From assembly GCF_003018255.1 (NCBI RefSeq), contig NZ_CP027440.1: a stretch of 64,000 nucleotides of DNA; one strand, given 5' to 3'. Position 1 is the stretch's first letter, and each line of letters opens with the position of its first letter. This DNA comes from Escherichia coli. GTDB lineage: Bacteria; Pseudomonadota; Gammaproteobacteria; Enterobacterales; Enterobacteriaceae. Made by a program: the position numbers and the translations under genes. This document shows positions 1,304 through 62,013 of this stretch, one piece after another. The notes under the pieces were generated by a model. That model saw nothing but the letters and a program-made list of their open reading frames with translations, had not been told where the DNA came from and searched no databases.

Positions 1304-1380
1304 TAAGAGTGTGTCGGCGGTCAATTTCCCTTAAGTAACGCTATGTTAGGGTGTTGTGTTCTGGATATCTGGGGCATGAC

Positions 1381-2652: not shown

Positions 2653-2903
2653 CCCGTAATCTCTGGCGCGTTGCCGATGCGCCGCACATTGTACCGGCTG
2701 ACTCCGTTGAGCGTCAGACGGTACAACGGTTGATTAACGCTTGTCCGGCTGGTCTTTTTTCGCTCACACCGGAAGGTGACTTACGCGTTGATTATCGCGG
2801 CTGCCTGGAGTGTGGCACCTGCCGTTTGCTGTGCGATGAAAAAACACTACAACAGTGGCGCTATCCGCCTTCCGGATTCGGCATCACCTACCGTTTTGGA
2901 TAA
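2643..2903 (+). CDS. ygcO: Ferredoxin-like protein, FixX-like
   Basis: ORF 2607..2903 trimmed to MSVTRNLW; motif CLECGTCRLLC; overlaps the ygcN stop, suggesting translational coupling. Confidence 0.8.
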   Translation: MSVTRNLWRVADAPHIVPADSVERQTVQRLINACPAGLFSLTPEGDLRVDYRGCLECGTCRLLCDEKTLQQWRYPPSGFGITYRFG

Positions 2904-2919
2904 ATAATAAGGATAATTT

Positions 2920-3495
2920 ATGCCCCTCTTACACCTGCTCCGCCAGAATCCGGTGATTGCTGCCGTTAAAGATAATGCCAGCCTGCAACTGGCAATCGAC
3001 TCTGAATGCCAGTTTATTTCCGTGTTGTACGGCAATATCTGCACCATTAGTCAAATCGTTAAAAAGATTAAAAATGCCGGAAAATATGCTTTTATTCATG
3101 TTGATTTGCTGGAAGGCGCGTCAAATAAAGAAGTGGTGATTCAGTTTTTGAAACTGGTGACTGAGGCGGACGGCATTATCAGTACCAAAGCCTCAATGTT
3201 GAAAGCGGCAAGAGCGGAAGGTTTTTTCTGTATTCATCGCCTGTTTATTGTTGATTCGATTTCGTTTCACAACATTGATAAGCAAGTTGCGCAATCGAAT
3301 CCGGATTGTATTGAGATCCTGCCAGGCTGTATGCCTAAAGTGCTGGGCTGGGTGACGGAGAAAATCCGCCAACCGCTGATTGCCGGCGGGCTGGTGTGCG
3401 ATGAAGAAGATGCGCGTAATGCGATTAACGCGGGTGTTGTGGCGCTTTCCACCACGAATACCGGGGTCTGGACGTTAGCGAAAAAATTGCTTTGA
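2920..3495 (+). CDS. ygcP: GlpP-family (glycerol-3-phosphate responsive) antiterminator-like regulator
   Basis: 191-aa ORF with RBS ahead; size and position match K-12 ygcP. Confidence 0.8.
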   Translation: MPLLHLLRQNPVIAAVKDNASLQLAIDSECQFISVLYGNICTISQIVKKIKNAGKYAFIHVDLLEGASNKEVVIQFLKLVTEADGIISTKASMLKAARAEGFFCIHRLFIVDSISFHNIDKQVAQSNPDCIEILPGCMPKVLGWVTEKIRQPLIAGGLVCDEEDARNAINAGVVALSTTNTGVWTLAKKLL

Positions 3496-3560
3496 CGGGA
3501 TACTCGTAACGAGTTGAATTTGTGTGATTTGTAGGCTGCACGCCACATCCGACATTCAGC

Positions 3561-3592
3561 GCCTGATACGACGCTTGACGCGTCTTATCAGG
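3561..3592. repeat. REP-like imperfect palindrome between convergent ygcP and ygcQ
   Basis: gcctgatacgacgc-ttgac-gcgtcttatcaggc inverted repeat in a convergent intergenic gap. Confidence 0.5.
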
Positions 3593-3641
3593 CTTACAAG
3601 TCCCCAGCCCAGAACCGTAGGCAGGATCATCCGGCAGCACG

Positions 3642-4502
3642 TTATTGGCAATCTGCGTGAATGGTTGTCACCAGTGCCTCCAGCACCGCTTTCCAGTCAT
3701 CAACCACGCCAACATCTGCCTGTGAAAATACCGCCGCGCTGGCGTCATGATTAATCGCCACCACAAACTTGCTATTGCGTACGCCCGCCATTAACGCTGC
3801 TGCGCCGGAAGCGCCAACAACAATGCACACCTCAGGCGCCAGCAGATGTCCGGAAATACCAATCACTTTTTCAGCATCAACGCCACCGTTCATCACTCGC
3901 GCCCGACTGTAGCCCACTTCGGCTCCCAGCTTTTCTACCAGCATAGCGATTTCCTGGTTATCTGCCTCTCCGCCCTGCCCCACCACCAGCACCCGTCTGG
4001 CTTCAGCTAATGGATCGCGGGTAACATTTTTCAGGTTTTCTATGCTAATCAGCCAGTCGGGAAGCGCACCGGGGACAATGTTCAGTTGCAGCATACCAGA
4101 GGGCAACATGGTGTTTATCTCTGCTCCCGCCTGACGCGCCAGGGAAAGACATAGCGGGCGTTTTTCTGTTTGCAGCGTCGCCGTTAGCGCATTTCCCCAG
4201 TGGGATTTGCGCACGCTTACGGTTGGAATATCTAACGAAGTCACCTGGCAGATGCTTGCACCATGTAAACGCCAGGCCAGCCGGATCGACAGTTCATCGC
4301 CAAACGCGCCCGGAGGAAAAAGGACAACCTCCGCAGGCGTTCGTTGCCACTGTTCCACCAGCGCATCCAGCACCTGTTCCGCAACCATCGGCTGTGGTTC
4401 TATTTGCCAATGCGTTAGTGTGCTGCCGCTGAAATCCTGCGCCGCCAGCCAGCCCGCCATTGCGGCATGTTCCTGATTTATTGTCACAATTGCGATATTC
4501 AT
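3642..4502 (-). CDS. ygcQ: Electron transfer flavoprotein alpha-subunit-like (FixB-like)
   Basis: ORF 3642..4535 trimmed to MNIAIVTINQ (286 aa); ETF-alpha-like C-terminal region. Confidence 0.8.
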   Translation of the reverse strand: MNIAIVTINQEHAAMAGWLAAQDFSGSTLTHWQIEPQPMVAEQVLDALVEQWQRTPAEVVLFPPGAFGDELSIRLAWRLHGASICQVTSLDIPTVSVRKSHWGNALTATLQTEKRPLCLSLARQAGAEINTMLPSGMLQLNIVPGALPDWLISIENLKNVTRDPLAEARRVLVVGQGGEADNQEIAMLVEKLGAEVGYSRARVMNGGVDAEKVIGISGHLLAPEVCIVVGASGAAALMAGVRNSKFVVAINHDASAAVFSQADVGVVDDWKAVLEALVTTIHADCQ

Positions 4503-5278
4503 GGCTGCATCCTTTGGCGTAAATAGTCCTGCCATAGCTTTTGCGCTTTTTCTGCTACCGTTTGCCCATCAATCAGCGCCGCTCTGCGTCGTTGCTCTGG
4601 CCTTGCCAGTTGCAGGCACTGTATCGCTGGCGCTTCCGCGGCAACAGTTTCGCGGGTAATCTCCGCTTTCCCCGCTGCCATTCGCTGGCGCATTCCCGGT
4701 ACTGGCAAGGCCACTTCACCACACTGACGCACGGCAATCACCGCAGGCAAGCGAACCCGGCAACAGCGCAACCCATGTTCAGTACGCTGTTCGAGGGTGA
4801 TAAACGGCGCGTCGAGAGTAAAACGCTCCACCTGGGTGAAACAGGGCCAGCCCAGCATTTCCGCCAGCAAAAATGGCGTTTGTCCATTCTGCCCTTCGCT
4901 GCTTTGGCAGCCGGTAATGATCAGATCCAGCGGATTCTGACGCTGCCATTCGGCAATATGGCGAGCGACAAATTCCGGCGCAAAGCGCAGATCTGCCGCC
5001 GTCTCCAGCAATACAGCGTCCTCAAACCCAAGAGCCATGAGATAGCGCAGCCAGTGCAACGCCCGTTCATCCCCCATGCTCAACGCGGTTAAAGACATCG
5101 GCGTACCGTTTTTTCTCTGCGCCAACAGCAGCGCGGCGGCAGCCTGTTCATCGGCACCGAGTAAACTTCGCAGAAGCGAAACATCCGGTCCGATATTACC
5201 CTGAGCCGCCGCCTGCCACTCTTTTTCCGCCAGCATTCCGGCATCCGGTTCGGCTTTAAACGCTAACAGAATGTTCAT
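4499..5278 (-). CDS. ygcR: Electron transfer flavoprotein beta-subunit-like (FixA-like)
   Basis: ORF 4499..5284; ATG at 5278 preceded by AGGAGG (reverse complement of 5285-5290); reads MNILLAFKAEPDAG; stop overlaps the ygcQ start. Confidence 0.8.
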   Translation of the reverse strand: MNILLAFKAEPDAGMLAEKEWQAAAQGNIGPDVSLLRSLLGADEQAAAALLLAQRKNGTPMSLTALSMGDERALHWLRYLMALGFEDAVLLETAADLRFAPEFVARHIAEWQRQNPLDLIITGCQSSEGQNGQTPFLLAEMLGWPCFTQVERFTLDAPFITLEQRTEHGLRCCRVRLPAVIAVRQCGEVALPVPGMRQRMAAGKAEITRETVAAEAPAIQCLQLARPEQRRRAALIDGQTVAEKAQKLWQDYLRQRMQP

Positions 5279-12142: not shown

Positions 12143-12281
12143 ATGGTTATCCCCGCTGACGCGGGGAACATAAGTTCGACAACTTAAAAAATGATAACAA
12201 GTCCGGTTTATCCCCGCTGATGCAGGGAACATAATAAAAACTTTAACTAGTTCGGTTTATCCCTGTTTTTACAAGGAATAT
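12143..12281 (-). CRISPR. Decayed type I-E CRISPR remnant (3 degenerate repeats, 2 spacers)
   Basis: Repeat-like units at about 12143-12171, 12204-12232 and 12253-12281 (for example cggtttatccccgctgatgcagggaacat), progressively diverged from the consensus. Confidence 0.7.
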
Positions 12282-12735
12282 TAACTACACTCGATGTCTT
12301 TAGAATAAAAGACAATACGAATCGTACTTTATCAATTTTCATTTAAAGTATGAACTGGATATCTTTATTCATAAGAACAATTCATCAACAGCGTATAGAG
12401 GCGGTTATGTAAAACCGCTCATTAGCCTCAAAACAAAGACAAATTTCCAGATTTATTACTTAATCAATGAATAACAAGCTTAAAAAATACACTGTAATTC
12501 TAAAGAAAAAATTAACAGGCATTAATTCAATATTAAAAAAATAATAGATTAAAATTTCTTAACGATTTAAGTATCATACAAATAACACTTTGATTAAATT
12601 TAATTTTTTGTATCGATAATTGTGAACTTCTCTGGCATGGAGAACTATTTTGAACATGAGGTGTTACGTGGATATGTTGCTTATTACAAGTACAGCTAAT
12701 ATAAAAACTTGAGAAAGAGATAACGGGTTATATGG

Positions 12736-13069
12736 TGGTTTATCCCCGCAGGCGCGGGGAACTCATAGAGAAAAGAAACGGCAGCTTTGCCACTTCCGGT
12801 TTATCCCCGCTGGCGCGGGGAACTCCGCGTTTCTAATCTCACCGCCACGGCGATCAACGGTTTATCCCCGCTGGCGCGGGGAACTCACCCCTTTAACGTC
12901 ACCAGACCGCTAACGACGCGGTTTATCCCCGCTGGCGCGGGGAACTCGCGTAACCATTTTGATGGCGCTACCGAAATGGCGGTTTATCCCCGCTGGCGCG
13001 GGGAACTCGATCAACGGCCTGGCGGCTGCCTCTGAAATCTCGGTTTATCCCCGCTGGCGCGGGGAACTC
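12736..13069 (-). CRISPR. Type I-E CRISPR array, 6 repeats and 5 spacers of 32 nt
   Basis: 29-nt repeat cggtttatccccgctggcgcggggaactc (reverse complement of the E. coli I-E repeat) at 12736, 12797, 12858, 12919, 12980 and 13041; spacers at 12765-12796, 12826-12857, 12887-12918, 12948-12979 and 13009-13040. Confidence 0.95.
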
Positions 13070-13250
13070 TCTAAACATAACCTATTATTAATTAATGATT
13101 TTTTAAGCCAGTCACAATCTACCAACTTTACAGTATCACACAAACAACACATCCATTATGTTAAAGAGCACTTAATCCATTGATTAAAAAGCTAAATATT
13201 TAAAATAACTCTATACAAACTAAAATCTACCAAACTTCGCCGCAATAATT
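13070..13250 (-). promoter_or_regulatory. AT-rich CRISPR leader on the queE-proximal side of the array
   Basis: Low-GC sequence directly abutting the terminal consensus repeat in crRNA orientation. Confidence 0.6.
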
Positions 13251-13408
13251 TTCACTCCAGCGAAAAATTAACGCCACAGAATTTGTAGAGAATGATAATG
13301 ATTAGTCCGGGATGGGCAAGATGGATGAGTTTTCAGAGGCGACAAACAATATAAATGAGTAGAAGTCTTTACAGGTTCCACCCATTTATAACGCTTATAA
13401 ATGTTTAA

Positions 13409-14080
13409 TCAGGCAATATTTAGATATTTATGTGTTTGCATCGACAAACGCCAATTACGCGCAATGCAGGTTTCAATGCACAAACGTGTGGCATCATCCT
13501 TTTGGCTAATCGGCTGCAGTGCAATGACTCGCGGTTTATCATCGGTCAGCGTTGCCAGTAGTTCATCCAGTGCTTCAATATCACGTACGCGCCCCACTGG
13601 ATGCTTGATTTCGTTGGCTCGCTCCAGTGCCTGTGACAACACTTCATAGCCGCCGCGCATGTTCAGCTTTGGTGATACGGTAACCCAGGTATTCGGTGTG
13701 CAGCGTACCTCATGAGTACCACTGGTTTCAATCTGGCAGCTAAAACCATTCTTTTCGAGCAGATCAGTCAGTGGTAGCAAATCATGAATGCAAGGCTCAC
13801 CACCCGTAATCACCACATGCCGCGCGGTGTATCCCTGGCGACCAATGACAGCCAGCAAGTCTTCACTGCTCGCCGCCCCCCACTTATCACTCTCTTTGGT
13901 CTTCGCCAGAATGCTGAAAAGGGAGACTTCCCGATCCTCAAGCTTTTCCCAGGTGTGTTTGGTGTCGCACCAGGCACAGCCAACCGGGCATCCCTGTAAA
14001 CGAATAAAAATGGCGGGGACGCCGGTAAAGTAACCCTCACCTTGCAGGGTCTGGAACATCTCGTTAATCGGGTACTGCAT
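13409..14080 (-). CDS. queE: 7-carboxy-7-deazaguanine synthase (radical SAM)
   Basis: 223 aa, MQYPINEMFQTLQGEGYFTGVPAIFIRLQGCPVGCAWCDTK with the CxxxCxxC-type radical SAM cluster motif. Confidence 0.9.
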   Translation of the reverse strand: MQYPINEMFQTLQGEGYFTGVPAIFIRLQGCPVGCAWCDTKHTWEKLEDREVSLFSILAKTKESDKWGAASSEDLLAVIGRQGYTARHVVITGGEPCIHDLLPLTDLLEKNGFSCQIETSGTHEVRCTPNTWVTVSPKLNMRGGYEVLSQALERANEIKHPVGRVRDIEALDELLATLTDDKPRVIALQPISQKDDATRLCIETCIARNWRLSMQTHKYLNIA

Positions 14081-14374
14081 AGCATTCTCTGTGAAGTGGA
14101 TAATTGTTAATTATTGCAGATCCTGCCACAACAATCATGTCTTATTAACATTCTGTTACAGGCAGGTTTAAAGAAAAATGAGAAACAGATCGTTAATAAT
14201 AAAAGGGAGTAACGTATTATGTCAGAAATAAATAAAGTAAAGGGATTTAATCATGTCAAAAACATTCACCAAAATTATACTTATTTTTTTCTGTGTTCGT
14301 TTTTAATTATAACGAATCTCAAATTACCGATGCCGCCGTCAATTTATTTATCCAGCTTTAATGGGACATTTATA

Positions 14375-15244
14375 ATGCGCTATTTCATACTAATATTCAC
14401 ATTCGTGTGTTCCTTTGTTGCAGCCCAACCAACTATTGTCCCACAATTACAGCAACAAGTTACGGATCTTACGAGTAGCTTAAACTCACAAGAAAAGAAA
14501 GAACTGACGCGGAAGTTAGAATCTATTTTCAATAATACCCAAGTACAAATTGCTGTATTAATTATTCCCACAACCAAAGACGAGACAATTGAACAATATG
14601 CTACAAGGGTTTTTAACAATTGGCGTTTAGGAGATGCCAAACGCAATGATGGGATACTGATCATTGTTGCCTGGTCGGATCGCACTGTCCGCATCCAGGT
14701 AGGTTATGGGCTGGAAGAAAAGGTAACCGATGCTCTGGCTGGAGATATCATCCGTAGCAACATGATACCCGCATTTAAACAACAAAAATTAGCTAAGGGA
14801 TTAGAGTTAGCTATAATCGCTTTGAATAACCAACTCACTTCACAACACCAATATTCGGCTAATCCTTCAGAAAGTGAATCAGCGTCTTCCAGCGATCATT
14901 ACTACTTTGCTATTTTTTGGGTATTTGCAGTGATGTTCTTCCCTTTCTGGTTTTTTCATCAAGGCAGTAATTTTTGTCGCGCATGTAAAAGCAGTGTCTG
15001 TATTTCAGCAATCTATCTTTTAGATTTATTCCTGTTCTCCGATAAAACTTTTTCCATTGCTGTATTTTCCTTCTTTTTTACTTTCACCATATTTATGGTC
15101 TTTACCTGTTTATGTGTACTTCAGAAAAGAGCATCAGGTAGAAGTTATCATTCAGACAACAGCGGTTCCGCTGGAGGCTCAGGCGGCGGGTTTAGCGGCG
15201 GTGGCGGTTCTTCTGGCGGTGGCGGCGCATCCGGCCGCTGGTAA
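14375..15244 (+). CDS. ygcG: TPM-domain membrane protein with glycine-rich C-terminal tail
   Basis: ORF 14219..15244 trimmed to [19 protein letters not shown] (signal-peptide-like); internal TM segments; tail [26 protein letters not shown]. Confidence 0.75.
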
Positions 15245-31025: not shown

Positions 31026-31808
31026 TTAGGAACTTATCTCTCCATCCTGACCCGATGGCGCACTGAACTCAACCCTTTCATTTTCAGGAAGCAGACCCCG
31101 CCAGCCAAATTGTGATAACGCCTGCATCCAGGTGTCGTCCAGGCCCGCGTGAATAGTCAGTGGCTCGCCAGTAAAAGGATGCGTCAATGACAACTGACTG
31201 GCATGCAGCATTAACCGCTGAAGGCCAAAATGTTCAGCACCGCTGCGATTCTGGCGTAAATCACCATGTTTGCTGTCGCCAATAATCGGGTGGCGCAAAT
31301 GGGCAAGATGGCGACGGAGCTGGTGCTTACGTCCGGTTTTCGGCTCCAGTTCCACCAGGCCGTAGCGCGTGGTCGGGTAACGTCCGGTCGCTACCAGCAT
31401 TTCTACGGTCGCCAGACCGCGATAATGCGTCACTGCTGGCTGCGGGCCTTTATCTTCGCGGGCAAATTTATCAGCGATTTTGTCCAGTTCTTCCACCAGT
31501 GGATAATCCAGCACCGCTTCTTCCATCAACCAGCCGCGCACAATCGCATGGTAACGTTTCTGGATTTGGTGCTGTTCAAACTGTTGTGCCAGCAGCCGTC
31601 CGGCCTCGCTGGATAATCCCATCAACAACACACCAGAAGTGGGTCGGTCCAGACGATGAGCAGTAAACACATGCTGGCCTATCAGGTCACGCACGGTTTG
31701 CATGACCACTACTTTCTCGTCGCGATCCAGCCAGCTGCGGTGAACCAGCCAGCCGGAGGGTTTATTTACCGCAACCAGCCATTCATCCTGATAGAGTATT
31801 TCCAGCAT
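31026..31808 (-). CDS. truC: tRNA pseudouridine(65) synthase
   Basis: 260 aa RluA-family pseudouridine synthase (HRLDRPTSG motif). Confidence 0.92.
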
Positions 31809-32137
31809 TAGCTCGCATCATCCGCAAAAAGAGCATCCAGTTTTTCCAGCTCAGCCAGAATAAGCGCGCGTTGCGGATGATCAGTCGCCAGCGCCATTTC
31901 ATAATAGGGTGCAACGGCAAAAGCGCCCGGTAACGGCTGGTTGTTATCTAACAAATCGTGCATTCGCGGGATCAGCACCCACTGCAACCACTCCAGTGGT
32001 TCCATGGTGTCCATAAAGAACGGTTGGGTACTGTTAAATTGATGCGGCTGGGGTTTATCGTTTCGCCAGTGCTGATGTTCACGCAGTAACGCTTCAAGCG
32101 CCTGCAACTGGAGACGAACGCGGTCATGAGTGGTCAT
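31808..32137 (-). CDS. yqcC: DUF446-family protein
   Basis: 109 aa; stop overlaps the truC start. Confidence 0.85.
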   Translation of the reverse strand: MTTHDRVRLQLQALEALLREHQHWRNDKPQPHQFNSTQPFFMDTMEPLEWLQWVLIPRMHDLLDNNQPLPGAFAVAPYYEMALATDHPQRALILAELEKLDALFADDAS

Positions 32138-32182
32138 AAAGCAACCTCAATAAGAAAAACTGCCGCGAAGGATAGCAGGAAT

Positions 32183-32548
32183 AAAAAAAGGGAGCACTGT
32201 ATTCACAGTGCTCCCGGTTCGTTTCGCAGCATTCCGGCTACTTTTGTTGCTCCCTGCTCATCCTTGACAACTTTTCCTCTGGCCTTGCGGCCAATCGTTC
32301 ATCCTGAACTATTGCTTCCTGCTCACACCACCCCGATGTGATACTTCATCCTGAAGTGTTCCTGGCCTTCCTGACCCACCGAATCATCCTGACCGGTTCT
32401 CATTCTCCATCCTGGAGGTGTCCTTTAACGCGTCCTGCGTCATCCTCTTCGCTTCATCCAGAAGCCTTTCCCTGAAACACCATCCTGGTGTGTCCTTCAG
32501 AAGTGTCATCATCCTGATGTTCACTTCGTTGTCTGACTCCCTGTCGAC
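32183..32548 (-). ncRNA. csrB: CsrB small RNA (CsrA-sequestering)
   Basis: Minus strand begins GTCGACAGGGAGTCAGACAACGAAGTGAACATCAGGATGATG; about 18 CAGGA(U/A)G-type GGA motifs; 3' hairpin gggagcactgtgaatacagtgctccc followed by a T-run. Confidence 0.93.
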
Positions 32549-49671: not shown

Positions 49672-50589
49672 TTATTGTTCATAACGAAAGCGGAATTTTT
49701 CTTGTTCAGCAGCGGCTTTCGCCAGGATCCATTGGCGAAAGGCGGCTATTTTACCCAGTTCTGCCTGGCTGTCATGACAAACCAGATAAAAAGCGTTTTT
49801 ACTGACCAGAACATCATTAAACGGGCAAACAAGACGTCCGGCCTCAATTTCAGATTGCGCCATCACGTTATTTGCCAGCGCCACTCCCTGCCCGTGGATA
49901 GCCGCTTGCAGCACCATGGCGCTATGGCTAAAAATTGGCCCTTGCTGAACGTTGATATGATTTAACCCCAACTGTCGGGTATATGTCTGCCAGTCACGAC
50001 GCGACGCATCATGTAATAACGTATGTTTAGCCAGATCTTCCGGGGTCTTCAAGGGTTTTTCGCCAGTCAGCAGTAGCGGCGAACACACCGGCAATAAATA
50101 TTCGGCGTAAAGTTTTTCCACCCGTAGCCCCGGCCAGTTGCCCCGACCATAAAATATCGCCACATCAACATCATCCGCCAGCTTATCTTCCTGACGATCA
50201 ACCGCCTGGATTCGAACGTCAATTCCCGGATAAGCTGAATTAAAGCTGGAAAGTCGCGGAACCAACCAATGAATGGCGAAACTGGGGAGTAAACTGACCG
50301 TCAACGCCCCCTTAGCGCTACGGGCCTGGAGTTTACGCGTCGCTTCGGTTAATTGCGAAAATATCTCTTTGATATCGAGGAAATAGCTTTGCCCTTCCTC
50401 GGTCAGCAGGAGTGAACGATTACGGCGGCGGAACAGTTTTAGCCCCAGAAAATCCTCAAGAGACTTGATTTGATGACTTACTGCGGCCTGGGTCACAAAA
50501 AGCTCTTCTGCTGCGCGAGTGAAACTTAAATGGCGTGCTGCGGCATCAAAAACTCGTAAGGCATTTAGCGGTGGTAATCGTTTAGACAT
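49672..50589 (-). CDS. gcvA: LysR-family regulator of the glycine cleavage system
   Basis: 305 aa, MSKRLPPLNALRVFDAAARHLSFTRAAEELFVTQAAVSHQIK. Confidence 0.95.
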   Translation of the reverse strand: MSKRLPPLNALRVFDAAARHLSFTRAAEELFVTQAAVSHQIKSLEDFLGLKLFRRRNRSLLLTEEGQSYFLDIKEIFSQLTEATRKLQARSAKGALTVSLLPSFAIHWLVPRLSSFNSAYPGIDVRIQAVDRQEDKLADDVDVAIFYGRGNWPGLRVEKLYAEYLLPVCSPLLLTGEKPLKTPEDLAKHTLLHDASRRDWQTYTRQLGLNHINVQQGPIFSHSAMVLQAAIHGQGVALANNVMAQSEIEAGRLVCPFNDVLVSKNAFYLVCHDSQAELGKIAAFRQWILAKAAAEQEKFRFRYEQ

Positions 50590-50717
50590 GGCTTTTAAAC
50601 TTTGATGTTAAATGAATTTAACAATTAGATTACACTATGTAACCTATTAGTTTTTTTAATCTGAGCCATTATAAATTGTCCGTTGAGCTTCTACCAGCAA
50701 ATACCTATAGTGGCGGC

Positions 50718-50923
50718 ACTTCCTGAGCCGGAACGAAAAGTTTTATCGGAATGCGTGTTCTGGTGAACTTTTGGCTTACGGTTGTGATGTTGTGTTGTTG
50801 TGTTTGCAATTGGTCTGCGATTCAGACCATGGTAGCAAAGCTACCTTTTTTCACTTCCTGTACATTTACCCTGTCTGTCCATAGTGATTAATGTAGCACC
50901 GCCTAATTGCGGTGCTTTTTTTT
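50718..50923 (+). ncRNA. gcvB: GcvB small RNA
   Basis: ACTTCCTGAGCCGGAACGAAAAGTTTTATCGG...GTTGTGATGTTGTGTTGTTGTGTTTGC (G/U-rich seed region) ending in the hairpin gcaccgcctaattgcggtgc plus T-run; divergent from gcvA. Confidence 0.93.
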
Positions 50924-50939
50924 ACCTTGCGATCGCGAA

Positions 50940-51167
50940 TTACTGATCCAGTTCGACCATCTCTTTCACGTCGGTACGGTTGATCTGCTGTTTGTTGCCA
51001 TTAGCGTCTTTATACGAAATCATACCGGTATCGTTATCAGTCTGTGGTTTGCCGTCAGAGACGATGGTACGTCCGTCATTGGTGTGCATCACATAGTTCG
51101 AACCGGAACAGGCGCTCAGGGCAAAAGTCAGCATACAGGCAGAAATAATTGCGGCAGTCTTTTTCAT
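50940..51167 (-). CDS. ygdI: DUF903-family lipoprotein
   Basis: 75 aa, [22 protein letters not shown] (lipobox LSAC). Confidence 0.85.
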
Positions 51168-51358
51168 CATCTTCTCCTTAAAGCGATTAATAAATCTTAA
51201 TAGTATTGATTAACAGGCTAAAATTAACGCCTAACACTATTCAGCATATGTTACTGACGCGGCTTCGCCAGGATATCCAGATAATTCTGATGGTTAGCAC
51301 TCTCCTTGTATCAAAGTGAATTTTGCGTCACGATCGGTGCATCAAGCCGAGGAGTACC

Positions 51359-52564
51359 ATGAACGTTTTTAATCCCGCGCAGTTTCGCGCCCAGTTTCCC
51401 GCGCTACAGGATGCGGGCGTCTATCTCGACAGCGCCGCGACCACGCTTAAACCTGAAGCCGTGGTTGAAGCCACCCGACAGTTTTACAGCCTGAGCGCCG
51501 GAAACGTCCATCGCAGCCAGTTTGCCGAAGCCCAACGCCTGACCGCGCGTTATGAAGCTGCACGGGAGAAAGTGGCGCAATTACTGAATGCACCAGATGA
51601 CAAAACTATCGTCTGGACGCGCGGCACCACTGAATCCATCAACATGGTGGCGCAATGCTATGCGCGTCCGCATCTGCAACCGGGCGATGAGATTATTGTC
51701 AGCGTGGCAGAACACCACGCCAACCTCGTCCCCTGGCTGATGGTCGCCCAACAAACTGGAGCCAAAGTGGTGAAATTGCCGCTTAATGCGCAGCGACTGC
51801 CGGATGTCGATTTGTTGCCAGAACTGATCACACCTCGTAGTCGAATTCTTGCTCTGGGACAAATGTCGAACGTCACTGGCGGTTGCCCGGATCTGGCGCG
51901 AGCGATTACCTTTGCTCATTCAGCCGGGATGGTGGTGATGGTTGATGGTGCTCAGGGGGCGGTGCATTTCCCCGCGGATGTTCAGCAACTGGATATTGAT
52001 TTCTATGCTTTTTCAGGTCACAAACTGTATGGCCCGACAGGTATCGGCGTGCTGTATGGCAAATCAGAACTGCTGGAAGCGATGTCGCCCTGGCTGGGCG
52101 GCGGCAAAATGGTTCACGAAGTGAGTTTTGACGGCTTCACGACTCAATCTGCGCCGTGGAAACTGGAAGCTGGAACGCCAAATGTCGCTGGTGTCATAGG
52201 ATTAAGCGCGGCGCTGGAATGGCTGGCAGATTACGATATCAACCAGGCCGAAAGCTGGAGCCGTAGCTTAGCAACGCTGGCGGAAGATGCGCTGGCAAAA
52301 CGTCCTGGCTTCCGCTCATTTCGCTGCCAGGATTCCAGCCTGCTGGCCTTTGATTTTGCTGGCGTTCATCACAGCGATATGGTGACGCTGCTGGCGGAGT
52401 ACGGTATTGCCCTGCGGGCCGGGCAGCATTGCGCTCAGCCGCTACTGGCAGAATTAGGCGTAACCGGCACACTGCGCGCCTCATTTGCGCCATATAATAC
52501 AAAGAGTGATGTGGATGCGCTGGTGAATGCCGTTGACCGCGCGCTGGAATTATTGGTGGATTAA
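51359..52564 (+). CDS. csdA: Cysteine desulfurase (sulfur acceptor-dependent)
   Basis: ORF 51323..52564 trimmed to [32 protein letters not shown] (401 aa); PLP-dependent class V aminotransferase. Confidence 0.93.
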
Positions 52565-55246: not shown

Positions 55247-55323
<77 letters not shown>

Positions 55324-55356
55324 ATTAAAATTTGATGAAGTAAAGCAGTACGGTGA

Positions 55357-55433
<77 letters not shown>

Positions 55434-55466
55434 ATCAAAATTTGATGAAATAAAGCAGTACGGTGA

Positions 55467-55543
<77 letters not shown>

Positions 55544-55596: not shown

Positions 55597-56174
55597 GTTT
55601 TTACGCTTCCTTACCCGTTTCAGTGAAGCCTGAGACAATGAGTAAACCGTTAATATCCCTCCATCAAAGCCATCCATCTTATTTATATATTAAACATATA
55701 CCCCATTAATGAATTTTATATATTCTATAAATCAATTTATTTTGGTTATGTTAACATTTCAATATCACAACAGGGCGCTACGCTTATATAATCATTGTAC
55801 AAAAAGCACACAACTTTTTAATTAGTAGAAAAATTAATAATTTTTTGTGAAAGCCCGGACAATAAGTTTAATGAATATCTTAATAGGCTCTCATACTACC
55901 CAATTTCTTAAAAGTGCAAATTTGTGAAGCTTACCCTGTTATTATTTTAAGTTTCATGCCAAATTCTCTCACCAGATAATGCCACCCTCTCCCGAAAAAT
56001 AATCAAGAGGCCAAACAATATCTAAAATGATACAACTGTATCTATTCCCCTGAAAAATACATTATTCATTTGTATATTTTCCTCATCATTGCTTTTTATT
56101 TAAATCATCCGATAATCCCCTGAATATAATTATGTCAATAACCATCAGAAAAAGTGGATGATGAGGAAAAGGAT

Positions 56175-56675
56175 ATGGCCGACAGTTTCCAGAATGAAGT
56201 TCCCGCCGCTCGTGTAAATATCAAGCTTGATCTGCATACAGGCAATGCTAAAAAGAAAGTTGAACTCCCCCTCAAGCTTCTTGCCGTAGGCGATTACAGT
56301 AACGGAAAAGAGCAACGTCCGCTGTCCGAACGGGACAAGGTTGATATCAATAAAAACAACTTCAACAGCGTCATGGCTGAGTTTTCGCCTGCGGTTAATT
56401 TAACAGTAGAAGATACGCTAAACGGAAACGGTAATGAACAAAATATCGCGCTTGAATTTAAAAGCCTGAAGGATTTTGAACCCGAACAGGTAGCAAAAAA
56501 TATTCCGCAACTTCGTGTATTACTCGCTATGCGCAATTTACTACGTGACCTGAAATCCAATCTGCTGGATAACGCAACGTTTCGCCGTGAACTGGAAAAT
56601 ATCCTGAAAGACCCGACGCTCAGTTCAGAACTGCGTGATGAACTGGCGAAAATTGCGCCGCAGGAGAACGTTTAA
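56175..56675 (+). CDS. tssB: Type VI secretion contractile sheath small subunit TssB (VipA)
   Basis: ORF 56154..56675 trimmed to MADSFQNEVPAARVNIKLDLHTGNAKKKVELPLKLLAVGDYS (166 aa), the characteristic TssB N-terminus; RBS aggaaaagga ahead. Confidence 0.9.
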   Translation: MADSFQNEVPAARVNIKLDLHTGNAKKKVELPLKLLAVGDYSNGKEQRPLSERDKVDINKNNFNSVMAEFSPAVNLTVEDTLNGNGNEQNIALEFKSLKDFEPEQVAKNIPQLRVLLAMRNLLRDLKSNLLDNATFRRELENILKDPTLSSELRDELAKIAPQENV

Positions 56676-56733
56676 CCCGAACGCGTATTCAGGTTAAACC
56701 GGAGAAGAAAGGATCCCTAAAAAGGAAATGCTG

Positions 56734-58272
56734 ATGTCTGTACAACAAGAATATGCCACCTCTGAAACTGCAACACTCACCACCACTGAGTCCGGCGGCG
56801 TTTATCAGTCCCTGTTTGATAAAATTAATTTAACCCCGGTCTCTTCCATTCAGGAAATCGATTTATGGCAAAACAGCGAAACGCTGGCCGATGCTTCACC
56901 CGATGAGCGCGTGACGGCGGCGATCCACGTTCTGCTTTCCTGTCTGGCGAAATCAGGCGAGGACGTGGTTAAACTCGACAAGAGCCTGCTGGATTTTCAT
57001 ATCGACGATTTGGATCAGAAAATCAGTAAACAGCTTGATGCAGTCATGCACCATCCGGAATTCCAGAAAGTCGAGTCGCTCTGGCGCGGCACATGGTTCG
57101 TCGTACAGCGCACCGATTTTCGCAAAAATGTCAAAATTGAACTGCTGGATATCAGTAAAGAACATCTGCGGCAGGACTTTGATGATTCTCCGGAAATCAT
57201 TCAAAGTGGTTTATATCGCCATACATACATTCAGGAATATGATACGCCGGGTGGCGAACCTGTAGCCTCATTAATATCCAGCTATGAATTCGATAACAGC
57301 CCGCAGGATATTGCCCTGCTGCGTAATATTTCCAGAGTCTCTGCTGCATCACATATGCCCTTTATCGGTTCCGTCGGACCGAAGTTCTTCCTTAAAAACT
57401 CGATGGAAGAAGTCGCCGCAATTAAAGATATCGGCAACTATTTTGACCGCGCGGAATATATCAAATGGAAGTCGTTCCGCGATACCGACGACAGCCGCTA
57501 CGTGGGATTAGTGATGCCGCGCGTGCTGGGCCGTCTGCCCTATGGCCCGGACACGGTGCCGGTACGCAGCTTTAACTATGTGGAAGAGGTCAAAGGCCCG
57601 GATCACGAAAAGTACCTCTGGACAAACGCCTCGTTTGCCTTTGCCGCCAATATGGTGAAGAGTTTTGTGAATAATGGCTGGTGTGTGCAGATCCGTGGTC
57701 CGCAGGCGGGTGGCGCAGTAGCCGATCTGCCGATCCATCTTTACGATCTCGGCACCGGCAATCAGGTCAAAATTCCGTCCGAAGTGATGATCCCGGAAAC
57801 CCGCGAGTTTGAGTTCGCCAACCTTGGCTTTATCCCGCTCTCTTATTATAAGAATCGCGATTACGCCTGCTTCTTCTCAGCGAACTCTGCCCAGAAACCG
57901 GCGCTGTATGATACCGCTGACGCCACCGCCAACAGCCGTATCAACGCCCGTTTGCCCTATATCTTCCTGCTGTCCCGCATTGCTCACTACCTGAAAATCA
58001 TTCAGCGCGAGAATATCGGCACCACCAAAGACAGACGCGTGCTGGAACTGGAGCTGAACACCTGGATCCGCACGCTGGTGACGGAAATGACCGATCCGGG
58101 CGATGAACTTCAGGCTTCGCATCCACTGCGCGACGGGAAAGTTATCGTCGAGGACATAGAGGACAATCCGGGCTTTTTCCGCGTCAGACTCTTTGCCGTG
58201 CCGCATTTCCAGATCGAAGGGATGGACGTCAACCTTTCTCTGGTTTCCCAGATGCCAAAAGCAAAAGCCTGA
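56734..58272 (+). CDS. tssC: Type VI secretion contractile sheath large subunit TssC (VipB)
   Basis: About 512 aa from MSVQQEYATSE; size and position after tssB; the ATG at 56728 is an alternative start. Confidence 0.9.
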   Translation: MSVQQEYATSETATLTTTESGGVYQSLFDKINLTPVSSIQEIDLWQNSETLADASPDERVTAAIHVLLSCLAKSGEDVVKLDKSLLDFHIDDLDQKISKQLDAVMHHPEFQKVESLWRGTWFVVQRTDFRKNVKIELLDISKEHLRQDFDDSPEIIQSGLYRHTYIQEYDTPGGEPVASLISSYEFDNSPQDIALLRNISRVSAASHMPFIGSVGPKFFLKNSMEEVAAIKDIGNYFDRAEYIKWKSFRDTDDSRYVGLVMPRVLGRLPYGPDTVPVRSFNYVEEVKGPDHEKYLWTNASFAFAANMVKSFVNNGWCVQIRGPQAGGAVADLPIHLYDLGTGNQVKIPSEVMIPETREFEFANLGFIPLSYYKNRDYACFFSANSAQKPALYDTADATANSRINARLPYIFLLSRIAHYLKIIQRENIGTTKDRRVLELELNTWIRTLVTEMTDPGDELQASHPLRDGKVIVEDIEDNPGFFRVRLFAVPHFQIEGMDVNLSLVSQMPKAKA

Positions 58273-58291
58273 TCGGGCGGTGGTGTGATGT

Positions 58292-59629
58292 ATGAAAATT
58301 TGTCGACCACTGTGGGCTGAGGGGACATTCCTGTCTTCTCAGCAGTTTCAGCAGCAGGCCCGCTGGGAAGCGTTCAGCAATGACAGCATTGCGCAGCTTT
58401 GTATTCGCCATCCGTGGGGGATCTCAAACGTGCTCTTTGACCGGGATGCCCTGACGCTCGGAAAGCTGAAAACGCAGGCAGTACGCCTGCGTTTTGCTGA
58501 TGGTACGCTGATCGATTCAGACGTGGCGGATATTCTGCCGCCTGCCTGTGACCTGCGCACGCTGGAGGGCGGCAGCGCGATTGTTTTGCTGGCGCTGCCG
58601 CTTGCGCATGGTAACGGCGGTAATCTCGGTCAGGGCGAGCAGGCTGAAAGGCCGCTGCGCTATCGTCAGGAATGGCAAAAGGTGCAGGATATCTACGGCA
58701 GTGACAGTGAAGATATGGCCGTTGAGCGCCATGCACTGTCCCTGCGCTTTGCCCATGATAACAATCAGGATTACATCACCTGTCCGCTGGCGCGTCTGGT
58801 GCGGGATGTTCAGGGCAACTGGACGCAGGATGAGAGCTATATTCCGCCGTTACTGACGTTAAACGCCCATGACGGGCTGGTACAGCGCCTGGACACGCTG
58901 CTGTTGCAGCTACGGGCGAAGTGCCAGCGCCTGATGGCGATGCGCCGGGAAAGCAACCAGCGCATGGCGGACTTCGCCGTCGCCGATGTCTCTCTGTTCT
59001 GGCTGCTTAACGCCCTGAATTCCGCCGAGCCGGTGCTGAGCGATTTCCTGCGCTACCCGGCTGTCCACCCCGAACTGGTCTGGCGGGAGCTGGCGAGGCT
59101 TGCCGGTGCGCTGCTGACGTTTTCCCTTGAGCATAACGTCAGCGCCGTTCCGCCCTATGTCCACGAATCGCCGTCCACCGTCTTTCCGCCACTGTTCTCC
59201 CTGCTCAGCGAGCTGCTGGAAGCCAGCCTGCCGTCGCGGGTGATCGCGCTGGATCTGGCGTCCCTGCCGGGCAACCGCTGGAAAGCCGACCTGCACGATC
59301 CGCGCCTGCAGGAAGAAGCCGATTTTTACCTGTCCGTTCGTTCCTCACTGCCTGCGCATCAGGTACTGCACCAGCTACCGCTGGTCTGCAAAATCGGTGC
59401 GCCTGATGACGTCACGCTGCTTATCAACGTGGCGCTGAACGGTGTTCCACTGGTGCCACTCACCTCGGTTCCGGCGGCGCTGCCGCTGCGGCTGGAGAGC
59501 CAGTATTTTGCGCTGGATATGCACAGTGACGCGGCTAAATCGATGCTGGAGTCCGGGTGCTGCATGATTTATGCGCCGGGAACAATGGGCGACCTGAAAC
59601 CTGAACTGTTTGCGGTGCTGCGCTCATGA
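58292..59629 (+). CDS. tssK: Type VI secretion baseplate protein TssK
   Basis: 445 aa, MKICRPLWAEGTFLSSQQFQQQARWEAF, the TssK N-terminal signature. Confidence 0.88.
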   Translation: MKICRPLWAEGTFLSSQQFQQQARWEAFSNDSIAQLCIRHPWGISNVLFDRDALTLGKLKTQAVRLRFADGTLIDSDVADILPPACDLRTLEGGSAIVLLALPLAHGNGGNLGQGEQAERPLRYRQEWQKVQDIYGSDSEDMAVERHALSLRFAHDNNQDYITCPLARLVRDVQGNWTQDESYIPPLLTLNAHDGLVQRLDTLLLQLRAKCQRLMAMRRESNQRMADFAVADVSLFWLLNALNSAEPVLSDFLRYPAVHPELVWRELARLAGALLTFSLEHNVSAVPPYVHESPSTVFPPLFSLLSELLEASLPSRVIALDLASLPGNRWKADLHDPRLQEEADFYLSVRSSLPAHQVLHQLPLVCKIGAPDDVTLLINVALNGVPLVPLTSVPAALPLRLESQYFALDMHSDAAKSMLESGCCMIYAPGTMGDLKPELFAVLRS

Positions 59630-60291
59630 AAAAAGAGACGGATATCAATATCGACGTGCTGCTGCGCGACACGTTTCTGACGGTGGTGGAACTGCGTCAG
59701 GGAACCACCGTGCGTCACGGTATCGAGCTGTATCGCCACTGTCAGCGGCAGGTGGAACTGGTCCGCGAACGTCTGAAAGATGCCGGATTCAGTCGGGAGA
59801 ACGTGGAGCACATAACTTACGCGCAGTGCGCCCTGCTGGACGAAACGGTGCTCAGCCGTAGTGGCATGGACGACGGTCAGGCCATCTGGATGAAAAACCC
59901 ACTCCAGTCGCATTTCTTCAACACTCTGCAGGCAGGCGAGCTGCTGTACGAACGGATGAAGCAGGTGTTGCAGGAGCCCGCCCCCGCGCAGGCAGTGCTG
60001 ACCTGCTTTCACCGTGTCCTGCTGCTGGGATTTCGCGGGCGTTATCAGGATCCGGTGGCCCCGGAGCGTGACCAGCTTATTTCGACGCTCAACGGGCTGG
60101 TCGCGCCATTTGGCGTGCTGCCGGAAACGGCGGTACTGAACGTGCCGTTATCCCCCCGTCAGCATCCTTTGCTGCATTCGCCGTTTTTCTGGCTGGTAAC
60201 GCTGACGCTGCTACTGGCCGGTGTCTGGTGGGGACTGCACCACTGGCTGAACGTGCTGGTGGATGAATTGCTGCCGCAAAGCCTGCGGTAA
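59626..60291 (+). CDS. tssL: Type VI secretion membrane protein TssL (DotU family)
   Basis: 221 aa; ATGA overlap with the tssK stop; single C-terminal TM segment LHSPFFWLVTLTLLLAGVWWGL. Confidence 0.85.
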   Translation: MKKETDINIDVLLRDTFLTVVELRQGTTVRHGIELYRHCQRQVELVRERLKDAGFSRENVEHITYAQCALLDETVLSRSGMDDGQAIWMKNPLQSHFFNTLQAGELLYERMKQVLQEPAPAQAVLTCFHRVLLLGFRGRYQDPVAPERDQLISTLNGLVAPFGVLPETAVLNVPLSPRQHPLLHSPFFWLVTLTLLLAGVWWGLHHWLNVLVDELLPQSLR

Positions 60292-60303
60292 AGGGAGCCG
60301 TGA

Positions 60304-61956
60304 GTGAGGAACACGCTGAAACAGGCCATCGTGCTGTGGGGAATGGTGTTACTGCTGGTGCTGTGGTGGGTGTTTGTCAGTCCGTCTGGCGTACTGAGAT
60401 GGGCCGGTGCAGCAGTTATCGTTCTGGCGGTTGCCGCATTGTTGATTTACCGGCGCAGGCAGACGTGGACGGAGATGACCGGCGATGCCGGGTTGTTATC
60501 GCTGCCGCCGGAAACGTACCGACAACCGGTAGTGCTGGTCTGTGGCGATATGTCAGCGCATCTGTTCACTGACAGCCCGGTCCGGCAGGTTTCAGAAGGG
60601 CTGTATCTGCATGTTCCCGATGAAGAACAGCTTGTGGCGCAGGTGGAGCGATTACTGACCCTTCGCCCGGCGTGGGCATCGCAGCTTGCCGTGGCGTATA
60701 CCGTCATGCCCGGCATGTACCGGGATACGGCGGTTCTGACCGGACAACTGCGACGGTTCGCTCACAGTATGGCGATAGTGCGTCGCCGGGCGGGCGTAAA
60801 CGTACCCTGGCTTCTCTGGAGCGGGCTGTCCGGCTCGCCGTTGCCGGAGAGAGCGAATTCACCGTGGTTTATCTGTACCGGCGGCGAAGTTCAGGTAGCA
60901 ACATCCGCAGAGACCACCATGCCCGCGCAGTGGATTGCACAATCCGGCGCACAGGAACGCAGTCAGCGACTCTCTTATCTGCTGAAAGCCGAAAGCCTGA
61001 TGCAATGGCTGGATCTGAATGTGCTGGCGGAACTGAACGGCCCGGAGGCGAAATGTCCACCACTGGCGATGGCCGTGGGGCTGGTCCCCTCGTTGCCTGC
61101 GGTGGATAACAACCTATGGCAGTTGTGGATCACCGCCAGAACCGGCCTGACGCCGGATATCGCGGACACCGGCACAGACGATGCGCTGCCATTCCCGGAT
61201 GCCCTGTTACGGCGGTTGCCGCGTCAGTCGGGCTTTACCCCGCTGCGACGGGCCTGCGTGACCATGCTGGGCGTCACCACCGTGGCGGGTATCGCCGCGC
61301 TGTGCCTGTCAGCCACGGCAAATCGCCAGTTATTACGGCAGGTCGGTGACGATCTGCACCGGTTTTATGCCGTCCCGGTGGAGGAATTTATCACCAAAGC
61401 CCGTCACCTGTCGGTGCTGAAAGACGATGCGACCATGCTCGATGGGTATTACCGGGAAGGAGAACCACTGCGCCTCGGTCTGGGGTTATACCCCGGCGAA
61501 CGCATCCGCCAGCCGGTATTACGCACCATTCGCGACTGGCGTCCGCCTGAACAAAAAATGGAGGTGACGGCTTCGCTTCAGGTTCAGACCGTGCGTCTTG
61601 ACAGTATGTCGCTGTTTGACGTCGGACAGGCCCGCCTGAAAGACGGCTCGACAAAAGTGCTGGTGGACGCACTGGTGAACATCCGGGCAAAACCGGGCTG
61701 GCTGATCCTCGTGGCCGGATATACCGACGCCACCGGCGACGAAAAAAGCAATCAGCAGTTATCGCTGCGACGTGCCGAAGCGGTGCGTAACTGGATGCTG
61801 CAGACCAGCGACATCCCGGCCACCTGTTTTGCCGTACAGGGACTGGGTGAGAGCCAGCCTGCGGCGACCAACGATACGCCACTGGGCAGGGCAGTCAACC
61901 GGCGCGTCGAAATCAGTCTTGTTCCGCGTTCTGACGCCTGTCAGGACGTGAAATAA
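60304..61956 (+). CDS. TagL-like T6SS accessory membrane protein with C-terminal OmpA-type peptidoglycan-binding domain
   Basis: 550 aa; N-terminal TM helices (AIVLWGMVLLLVLWWVFV, AGAAVIVLAVAALLIY); C-terminal OmpA-like motifs GYTDATGDEKSNQQLSLRRAEAV and NRRVEISLV; coordinates taken from the ORF track. Confidence 0.75.
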   Translation: MRNTLKQAIVLWGMVLLLVLWWVFVSPSGVLRWAGAAVIVLAVAALLIYRRRQTWTEMTGDAGLLSLPPETYRQPVVLVCGDMSAHLFTDSPVRQVSEGLYLHVPDEEQLVAQVERLLTLRPAWASQLAVAYTVMPGMYRDTAVLTGQLRRFAHSMAIVRRRAGVNVPWLLWSGLSGSPLPERANSPWFICTGGEVQVATSAETTMPAQWIAQSGAQERSQRLSYLLKAESLMQWLDLNVLAELNGPEAKCPPLAMAVGLVPSLPAVDNNLWQLWITARTGLTPDIADTGTDDALPFPDALLRRLPRQSGFTPLRRACVTMLGVTTVAGIAALCLSATANRQLLRQVGDDLHRFYAVPVEEFITKARHLSVLKDDATMLDGYYREGEPLRLGLGLYPGERIRQPVLRTIRDWRPPEQKMEVTASLQVQTVRLDSMSLFDVGQARLKDGSTKVLVDALVNIRAKPGWLILVAGYTDATGDEKSNQQLSLRRAEAVRNWMLQTSDIPATCFAVQGLGESQPAATNDTPLGRAVNRRVEISLVPRSDACQDVK

Positions 61957-62013
61957 AACATACCGCCGGAAGAAGGCGGTGCTTCAATCACACTAACAAG
62001 GAGAGTAATTCTC

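What the first reader, a model, noticed from the sequence alone, without database searches (positions are those of the whole stretch)
50590..50939. gcvA-gcvB divergent regulatory unit intact
gcvB (206 nt) with its G/U-rich target-binding region and terminator is encoded divergently from gcvA. ORF finders miss it, and it regulates amino-acid transporter mRNAs.
Basis: partly seen in the sequence, partly recalled or inferred. Interest (0 to 1): 0.2.

Follow-up and report, generated by a model that had tools for sequence, protein, structure and literature searches.

The report
Known E. coli gcvA–gcvB locus
This is the ordinary, well-studied E. coli gene for the small regulatory RNA GcvB next to its activator gene gcvA, intact and letter-for-letter the same RNA as in the K-12 reference strain, so it is correct but not new.

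Summary
The observation and the interpretation both hold. Rfam's GcvB model (RF00022) matches end to end at 50718-50923 (+) with 199 bits against a gathering score of 42. That stretch is 206/206 identical to the annotated gcvB (b4443) of E. coli K-12 MG1655. gcvA lies divergently at 49672-50589 (-). It encodes a 305-aa LysR-type protein identical to K-12 GcvA. The spacer is 128 bp, not 130. It holds a gcvB promoter (-35 TTGAGC, 17 bp, -10 TATAGT, ending 7 nt before the RNA 5' end), a perfect TATAAT for gcvA on the other strand, and the published GcvA inverted repeat ATTA-N7-TAAT centred at -65. The RNA has the G/U-rich R1 seed (50781-50809, up to 92% G+U, predicted unpaired), the R2 and R3 seeds, an internal terminator t1 and a final terminator t2 with a U8 tail. 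The finding's coordinates (50590-50939) are the whole gcvA-ygdI intergenic region. The same stretch occurs in 5,425 of 5,426 complete E. coli genomes. The only differences from K-12 are two SNPs in the gcvA leader (50594, 50631). Automated RefSeq annotation leaves gcvB unlabelled, which is why it looks like an empty gap. Verdict: already known, low interest.

The parts
49672..50589 (-). gcvA coding sequence (305 aa LysR-type regulator GcvA)
   Evidence: ORF. Pfam HTH_1 (res 8-67) plus LysR_substrate (res 91-292). NCBIfam NF008352 GcvA 512.8 bits vs cutoff 288. Protein identical to K-12 GcvA with 10 silent nucleotide differences.
50590..50661 (-). gcvA 5' leader (inferred, about 72 nt); holds the two SNPs relative to K-12 (50594 T vs A, 50631 T vs C) and a distal ATTAG motif at 50624-50628
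   Evidence: SNPs from the alignment; motif positions. The transcription start near 50661 is inferred from the -10 hexamer position and from my recollection of Wilson & Stauffer 1994 (start 72 bp upstream of the ATG). That paper was not available to read.
50646..50660 (.). GcvA binding site IR1, ATTAGTTTTTTTAAT (ATTA-N7-TAAT), centred at -65 from the gcvB start; overlaps the inferred gcvA start (autorepression site)
   Evidence: Pattern located. PMC5002191 gives the ATTA-n7-TAAT motif in the 48-bp GcvA footprint and places the IR1 centre at -65 from the gcvB TSS; 50718-65 = 50653, the centre of this repeat.
50668..50682 (.). Predicted weaker GcvA half-site IR2 (centre -43 from the gcvB start), adjacent to the gcvB -35; its first 6 bases are also the gcvA -10 hexamer TATAAT read on the - strand (50673->50668)
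   Evidence: ATTATA on the + strand at 50668 is TATAAT on the - strand. The IR2 centre at -43 comes from PMC5002191. The assignment of these bases is by position only.
50683..50711 (+). gcvB sigma-70 promoter: -35 TTGAGC (50683-50688), 17-bp spacer, -10 TATAGT (50706-50711)
   Evidence: Promoter scan, (9 of 12 matches). The -10 ends 7 nt before the RNA 5' end at 50718 given by Rfam and by the K-12 annotation. Sequence identical to K-12 here.
50718..50923 (+). gcvB small RNA gene, 206 nt
   Evidence: Rfam RF00022 199 bits, full model. 206/206 identical to K-12 b4443. MFE -62.1 kcal/mol, z -3.63.
50726..50776 (+). Stem-loop 1 (RNA nt 9-59); the literature places one SroC sponge pairing site in SL1
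   Evidence: Rfam consensus structure. Folds alone at -15.6 kcal/mol, z -2.4. SroC pairing in SL1 and SL4 from PMC9299463.
50781..50809 (+). R1: G/U-rich single-stranded seed region (RNA nt 64-92), GUUGUGAUGUUGUGUUGUUGUGUUUGCAA
   Evidence: G+U fraction 0.84-0.92 in 25-nt windows. Unpaired in the Rfam consensus and in the centroid fold. R1 as the main target-pairing region from PMC9299463.
50811..50829 (+). Stem-loop 2 (RNA nt 94-112)
   Evidence: Rfam structure. -8.5 kcal/mol, z -4.5.
50831..50851 (+). Stem-loop 3 plus U6 = internal terminator t1, giving the short form of about 130 nt
   Evidence: Terminator scan, (GGTAGCAAAGCTACC then TTTTTT). -6.9 kcal/mol, z -4.6. The t1/t2 pair and the 130/206-nt products are described in PMC1557403.
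50853..50861 (+). R2 conserved seed ACUUCCUGU (RNA nt 136-144)
   Evidence: Located; matches the Rfam consensus exactly. Role in cycA repression from PMC9299463.
50862..50894 (+). Stem-loop 4, with the R3 seed (core CUGUCUGUCC, 50871-50880, RNA nt 154-163)
   Evidence: Rfam structure. G156, G160 and C162 fall exactly where PMC9299463 places its R3 point mutations, so the numbering is in register. The weak fold alone (-2.4 kcal/mol, z -0.1) fits an accessible seed.
50895..50923 (+). Stem-loop 5 plus U-tail = Rho-independent terminator t2 (8-bp stem with 6 G-C pairs, then a T8 run at 50916-50923)
   Evidence: Terminator scan. -13.8 kcal/mol, z -4.7. The RNA 3' end agrees with Rfam and the K-12 annotation.

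Best explanation
This is the canonical Escherichia coli gcvA-gcvB divergent locus. Shown here: an intact gcvA gene (LysR-type regulator) and an intact 206-nt gcvB gene face away from each other across 128 bp. That spacer holds two overlapping back-to-back promoters and the GcvA inverted repeat. Taken from the literature, not tested here: GcvA bound to this region represses its own promoter and activates gcvB when glycine is plentiful, and GcvA with GcvR (encoded elsewhere) represses gcvB when glycine is absent. Transcription stops at t1 (product of about 130 nt) or at t2 (206 nt). The 206-nt RNA binds Hfq and pairs, mainly through its unpaired G/U-rich R1 region and also through R2 and R3, with C/A-rich sequences around the ribosome-binding sites of mRNAs for amino-acid and peptide transporters and amino-acid metabolism (dppA, oppA, gltI, cycA, lrp and others). 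This blocks translation and promotes decay. The sponge RNA SroC pairs with SL1 and SL4 and triggers RNase E degradation of GcvB. Because the RNA, its promoter and the GcvA protein are identical to K-12, the same mechanism is inferred for this strain.
For: Rfam GcvB matches full-length at 199 bits vs GA 42. The RNA is 206/206 identical to K-12 gcvB b4443, and the flanks are identical from 50632 to 50960. GcvA protein is identical to K-12, with NCBIfam GcvA at 512.8 bits and Pfam HTH_1 plus LysR_substrate. The gcvB -35/-10 sit at the right distance from the RNA 5' end, and both terminators are present. ATTA-N7-TAAT is centred exactly at -65, as published. R1 is up to 92% G+U and predicted unpaired. 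The R3 numbering is in register with published mutants. The gene order rlmM-ygdD-gcvA-gcvB-ygdI-csdA is the same as in K-12. The stretch is present in 5,425 of 5,426 complete E. coli genomes, at >=99% identity in 5,228. Regulation and targets: PMC1557403, PMC9299463, PMC5002191.
Against: Nothing in the sequence argues against it. Limits: expression, glycine response, Hfq binding and target repression were not and cannot be tested with these tools. gcvR, hfq and the target genes lie outside the window. The promoter-like and terminator-like site counts in 50400-51250 are not above shuffles as counts (3 vs 1.8 +/- 1.2; 2 vs 0.9 +/- 0.9), so only their positions carry weight. The scan did not call the gcvA promoter because its -35 is weak. 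The two leader SNPs relative to K-12 (50594, 50631) have unknown effect.
Confidence: 0.97

Rival explanations
1. The stretch encodes a small protein, or a dual-function RNA, rather than a purely non-coding RNA. Mechanical ORFs of 46 aa (50751-50891, ATG) and 37 aa (50771-50884, TTG) lie on the + strand inside gcvB.
For: The ORFs exist.
Against: The ATG at 50751 sits inside the SL1 helix with no spaced Shine-Dalgarno sequence upstream (sequence, structure). [quoted passage not shown] 2000. ORFs of this length are expected by chance in any 200-nt stretch.
Confidence: 0.02
2. The locus is present but functionally altered in this lineage: the two gcvA-leader SNPs change gcvA translation or autoregulation and so shift the GcvB level.
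For: SNPs at 50594 (5 nt upstream of the gcvA ATG) and 50631 (3 nt from the distal ATTAG motif) relative to K-12. In the spread sample this exact allele appeared only in the top row (1 of 25), whereas most rows had 1-2 mismatches.
Against: Both SNPs lie outside the IR1/IR2 region and outside both promoters. The allele is shared 100% with healthy, widely studied strains such as Nissle 1917, ATCC 25922 and ABU 83972. GcvA protein and the GcvB RNA are unchanged.
Confidence: 0.05

Closest known systems
E. coli K-12 MG1655 gcvB (b4443, NC_000913.3 2942696-2942901) with gcvA (b2808)
   Same: The RNA gene is 206/206 identical, GcvA protein is identical, and the spacer is 128 bp in both. Promoters, the GcvA repeat, both terminators and the neighbouring genes are the same.
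   Different: Two substitutions in the gcvA leader (50594 T for A; 50631 T for C) and 10 silent substitutions in gcvA.
Rfam family RF00022 GcvB (Enterobacteriaceae, Pasteurellaceae, Vibrionaceae)
   Same: Matches all 204 model positions, with five stem-loops, an unpaired G/U-rich linker, and the conserved R2 ACUUCCUGU.
   Different: E. coli carries an 8-nt insertion (uuguguug) in R1 relative to the family consensus, plus a few single-base deletions in loops. These are normal for E. coli members.
Other LysR regulators with a divergent small RNA or target gene (oxyR-oxyS, metR-metE)
   Same: The layout is the same: the regulator represses its own promoter and activates the divergent gene from sites in a shared short spacer (PMC5002191).
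   Different: The regulator, inducer (glycine via GcvR) and RNA are different. This is only an architectural analogy.

Membership tests
GcvB RNA (Rfam RF00022) | Covariance-model score at or above the family gathering score (42 bits), full length | tested here: met
   199 bits, E 1e-46, model 1-204/204, at 50718-50923 +
GcvB RNA (Rfam RF00022) | Unpaired G/U-rich R1 seed between SL1 and SL2 | tested here: met
   50781-50809; G+U 0.84-0.92; unpaired in the Rfam consensus and centroid folds
GcvB RNA (Rfam RF00022) | Conserved R2 (ACUUCCUGU) and R3 seed in SL4 | tested here: met
   R2 at 50853-50861, R3 core at 50871-50880; G156/G160/C162 in register with PMC9299463
GcvB RNA (Rfam RF00022) | Encoded divergently from gcvA with a GcvA binding site upstream of its promoter | tested here: met
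   gcvA at 49672-50589 (-), 128-bp spacer, ATTA-N7-TAAT at 50646-50660 centred at -65
GcvB RNA (Rfam RF00022) | Two Rho-independent terminators (t1 near nt 130, t2 at nt 206) with U tails | tested here: met
   50831-50845 plus T6 and 50895-50916 plus T8; described in PMC1557403
GcvB RNA (Rfam RF00022) | Hfq-dependent repression of amino-acid/peptide transporter mRNAs; induction by glycine through GcvA/GcvR | not testable with these tools
   Literature only (PMC9299463, PMC1557403). Inferred for this strain from sequence identity to K-12.
GcvA (LysR-type transcriptional regulator) | N-terminal LysR HTH plus LysR substrate-binding domain, and a match to the GcvA-specific model above its cutoff | tested here: met
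   Pfam PF00126 and PF03466; NCBIfam NF008352 512.8 bits vs cutoff 288; 305/305 identical to K-12 GcvA

The most novel reading that the evidence does not exclude
The least ordinary reading not excluded is that the two gcvA-leader substitutions carried by this allele alter gcvA translation or GcvA autoregulation. One (50594) lies 5 nt upstream of the start codon; the other (50631) lies beside a distal ATTAG motif. The allele is shared with B2-type strains such as Nissle 1917. If they have an effect, this lineage would have a different GcvB set-point from K-12.
Probability: 0.05. Interest if true: 0.15.

Novelty: already known. Interest (0 to 1): 0.04.

Why it matters
[quoted passage not shown] The practical point is that automated RefSeq annotation leaves this 350-bp gap unlabelled in thousands of E. 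coli genomes. There is no new biology: the gene, its regulator, its promoter architecture and its mechanism have been studied since 2000.

Tried and rejected
1. The promoter and terminator scan gave counts no higher than shuffles for the region as a whole, so I used only the positions of the sites relative to the RNA ends. The scan did not call the gcvA promoter because its -35 is weak. I located its perfect TATAAT by direct pattern search.
2. ATTA-N7-TAAT occurs twice in the 64-kb window against 0.85 expected, and 20 of 100 shuffles reach 2. The motif alone is therefore not evidence; its exact position at -65 is.
3. I tried to read Wilson et al. 1995 (the GcvA footprint paper), but it is not held. 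The footprint limits (-28 to +20 of gcvA) and the 72-nt gcvA leader therefore rest on my memory. They are consistent with the 48-bp figure quoted in PMC5002191.
4. A base-by-base comparison with Nissle 1917 failed because of indels. BLAST showed the window is only about 98% like Nissle overall and 100% like strains JNE23-011 and JNE112863 over 40000-64000.
5. I considered a small-protein reading of the internal ORFs and rejected it (see rival explanations).
6. I did not run cross-species scans of genome or metagenome collections. The Rfam model already encodes cross-species conservation, and the answer was not in doubt.

Full report
**Observation**

The finding covers 50590-50939. This is exactly the gap between the start codon of a minus-strand ORF at 49672-50589 and the stop codon of a minus-strand ORF at 50940-51170.

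A scan of the whole window against Rfam 15 at gathering thresholds gave a full-length match to GcvB (RF00022). The match is at 50718-50923 on the + strand, with 199 bits against a gathering score of 42, E = 1e-46, over model positions 1-204 of 204. A more permissive local scan of 50300-51400 repeated this. It added only a sub-threshold match to Hrs13 (28 bits vs 52) over the 3' third of the same RNA.

**Identity**

The 801 bases around the locus match 5,425 of 5,426 complete E. coli genomes. The finding's exact 350 bases match the same number, at >=99% identity in 5,228 of them.

The curated K-12 MG1655 record annotates ncRNA gcvB (b4443) at 2942696-2942901. It lies 128 bp from gcvA (b2808), in the gene order rlmM-ygdD-gcvA-gcvB-ygdI-csdA. 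The window has the same order.

Alignment to K-12 over 50560-50960 shows two differences only: 50594 (T for A) and 50631 (T for C). Both lie between the gcvA start codon and the regulatory repeat. The RNA gene itself is 206/206 identical.

The minus-strand ORF encodes a 305-aa protein with the LysR HTH and substrate-binding domains. It scores 512.8 bits against NCBIfam's GcvA model, whose cutoff is 288. It is identical in protein sequence to K-12 GcvA, with 10 silent nucleotide changes. The downstream ORF is the lipoprotein YgdI.

**Anatomy of the spacer (50590-50717, 128 bp)**

- **gcvB promoter.** On the + strand the scan finds -35 TTGAGC (50683-50688), a 17-bp spacer and -10 TATAGT (50706-50711). 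The -10 ends 7 nt before the RNA 5' end.
- **gcvA promoter.** On the - strand there is a perfect TATAAT at 50673-50668. Its -35 is weak, which is why the scan did not report it. With the start about 7 nt downstream (about 50661), the gcvA leader would be about 72 nt. That agrees with my recollection of Wilson & Stauffer 1994, which I could not read. The two starts would then be about 56 bp apart, with overlapping back-to-back promoters, as PMC5002191 states.
- **GcvA sites.** The inverted repeat ATTAGTTTTTTTAAT (ATTA-N7-TAAT) lies at 50646-50660. Its centre, 50653, is exactly -65 from the gcvB start. PMC5002191 places GcvA site IR1 there, within the 48-bp DNase footprint of Wilson et al. 1995. 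The weaker IR2 (centre -43) falls at 50668-50682 and abuts the gcvB -35.
- **Caveat.** The motif count alone is not significant in the window. Neither are the counts of promoter-like or terminator-like sites. The evidence is their exact register with the RNA ends and with published positions.

**Anatomy of the RNA (position 1 = 50718)**

| Element | Window coordinates | RNA nt | Notes |
|---|---|---|---|
| SL1 | 50726-50776 | 9-59 | |
| R1 linker | 50781-50809 | 64-92 | 84-92% G+U; unpaired in the Rfam consensus and in the centroid fold |
| SL2 | 50811-50829 | 94-112 | |
| SL3 plus U6 (t1) | 50831-50851 | 114-134 | internal terminator |
| R2 ACUUCCUGU | 50853-50861 | 136-144 | |
| SL4 | 50862-50894 | 145-177 | R3 core at 50871-50880 |
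| SL5 plus U run (t2) | 50895-50923 | 178-206 | final terminator; T8 run at 50916-50923 |

SL2, SL3 and SL5 each fold far better than shuffles (z about -4.5 to -4.7). R1 and SL4 do not, as expected for accessible seed regions. G156, G160 and C162 fall exactly where PMC9299463 places its R3 point mutants, so the numbering is in register with the literature.

**Mechanism (from the literature, inferred here by sequence identity)**

- GcvA activates gcvB when glycine is present, and GcvA plus GcvR represses it when glycine is absent (PMC1557403; PMC9299463).
- In E. coli about 90% of transcripts are reported to stop at t1 and about 10% at t2. The 206-nt form is the one required for dppA and oppA repression (PMC1557403).
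- The G/U-rich R1 pairs with most targets with the help of Hfq. R2 is used for cycA. R3 is used for lrp, phoP and others. SroC pairs with SL1 and SL4 and triggers RNase E decay (PMC9299463).
- None of this was testable here. gcvR, hfq and the targets lie outside the window.

**Rivals**

- **Small protein.** The 46-aa and 37-aa ORFs inside gcvB are mechanical. The ATG lies inside the SL1 helix without a spaced Shine-Dalgarno sequence. The E. coli RNA is reported not to be translated (PMC1557403).
- **Altered lineage allele.** A functional change caused by the two leader SNPs cannot be excluded but is unlikely. They lie outside the promoters and GcvA sites. The allele is shared 100% with well-studied strains including Nissle 1917, ATCC 25922 and ABU 83972.

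**Comparison and novelty**

This is a member of RF00022 and is the E. coli gcvB gene itself. All sequence-testable defining features were met. It is already known.

PGAP-annotated RefSeq genomes show no feature under this stretch. That is an annotation gap, not a discovery.

"Intact" is a fair word. It is also almost universal: 5,423 of 5,426 genomes hold at least 80% of the stretch in one piece. One counter-example is strain OkiPb01677, where an IS4-like ISVsa5 element sits between gcvA and ygdI. The match there breaks at query base 253, which is window 50842, inside SL3.

**Verdict**

The feature is already known, and interest is very low.

Noticed in passing
window 32180-32539 (-): Full-length CsrB small RNA gene (Rfam RF00018, 381.7 bits vs gathering 71), between the yqcC-like and syd-like ORFs, as in K-12.
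   Followed up: partly
L003 (E. coli Nissle 1917 NZ_CP022686.1) 31226-32468, equivalent to window about 32522-32539: In this Nissle assembly an IS3-like ISEc52-family element (annotated as frameshifted) sits immediately at the 5' end of csrB, whose Rfam match there is L003 30875-31234 (-). It would displace the csrB promoter region. The window lacks this insertion.
   Followed up: partly
window 55247-55543 (+): Three tandem, near-identical tRNA-Met (CAT) genes at a 110-bp period (the metZ-metW-metV array), found by both Rfam and ARAGORN.
   Followed up: yes
window about 56150-64000 (+): A type VI secretion gene cluster (tssB, tssC, tssK, tssL, an OmpA-family gene, hcp, tssH, by correspondence with the Nissle annotation) begins right after the tRNA-Met array. 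Only 1,221 of 5,426 E. coli genomes cover at least 80% of window 40000-64000 in one place, so this part looks like an accessory island at the tRNA locus.
   Followed up: partly
L006 (E. coli OkiPb01677 NZ_AP042483.1) 3254-4688, equivalent to window about 50842: A rare natural disruption of gcvB. An IS4-like ISVsa5 element lies between gcvA and ygdI, and the match to the window stops at the position of stem-loop 3 of GcvB.
   Followed up: partly
window 50594 and 50631: Two substitutions relative to K-12 in the gcvA leader (T for A, 5 nt upstream of the ATG; T for C next to a distal ATTAG motif). The allele is identical to that of Nissle 1917, ATCC 25922, ABU 83972 and clone D. It looks like a minority allele in the spread sample.
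   Followed up: partly
window 50852-50923 (+): Sub-threshold Rfam match to Hrs13 (Hfq-regulated sRNA 13; 28.1 bits vs gathering 52) over the 3' third of GcvB. That family may simply be a partial GcvB homologue from another enterobacterium.
   Followed up: no
window 50590-50939 and RefSeq records NZ_CP022686.1, NZ_AP045067.1: PGAP-annotated RefSeq E. coli genomes list no feature for gcvB, whereas the curated K-12 record does (b4443). This is a systematic annotation gap for this sRNA.
   Followed up: yes
window 50924-50939 and 50940-51170 (-): Only 16 bp separate the GcvB terminator tail from the ygdI stop codon (convergent genes). No terminator-like site was found on the minus strand downstream of ygdI, so ygdI read-through would be antisense to gcvB. 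The mechanical ORF gives YgdI as 76 aa (MMKK...), whereas RefSeq annotates 75 aa.
   Followed up: no
window 1-3028 and 12170-14577: These stretches do not align collinearly with the Nissle 1917 region used for comparison: there is extra sequence at the left end, and the gene content around the queE / LemA-TPM region differs. These are strain-variable segments.
   Followed up: no
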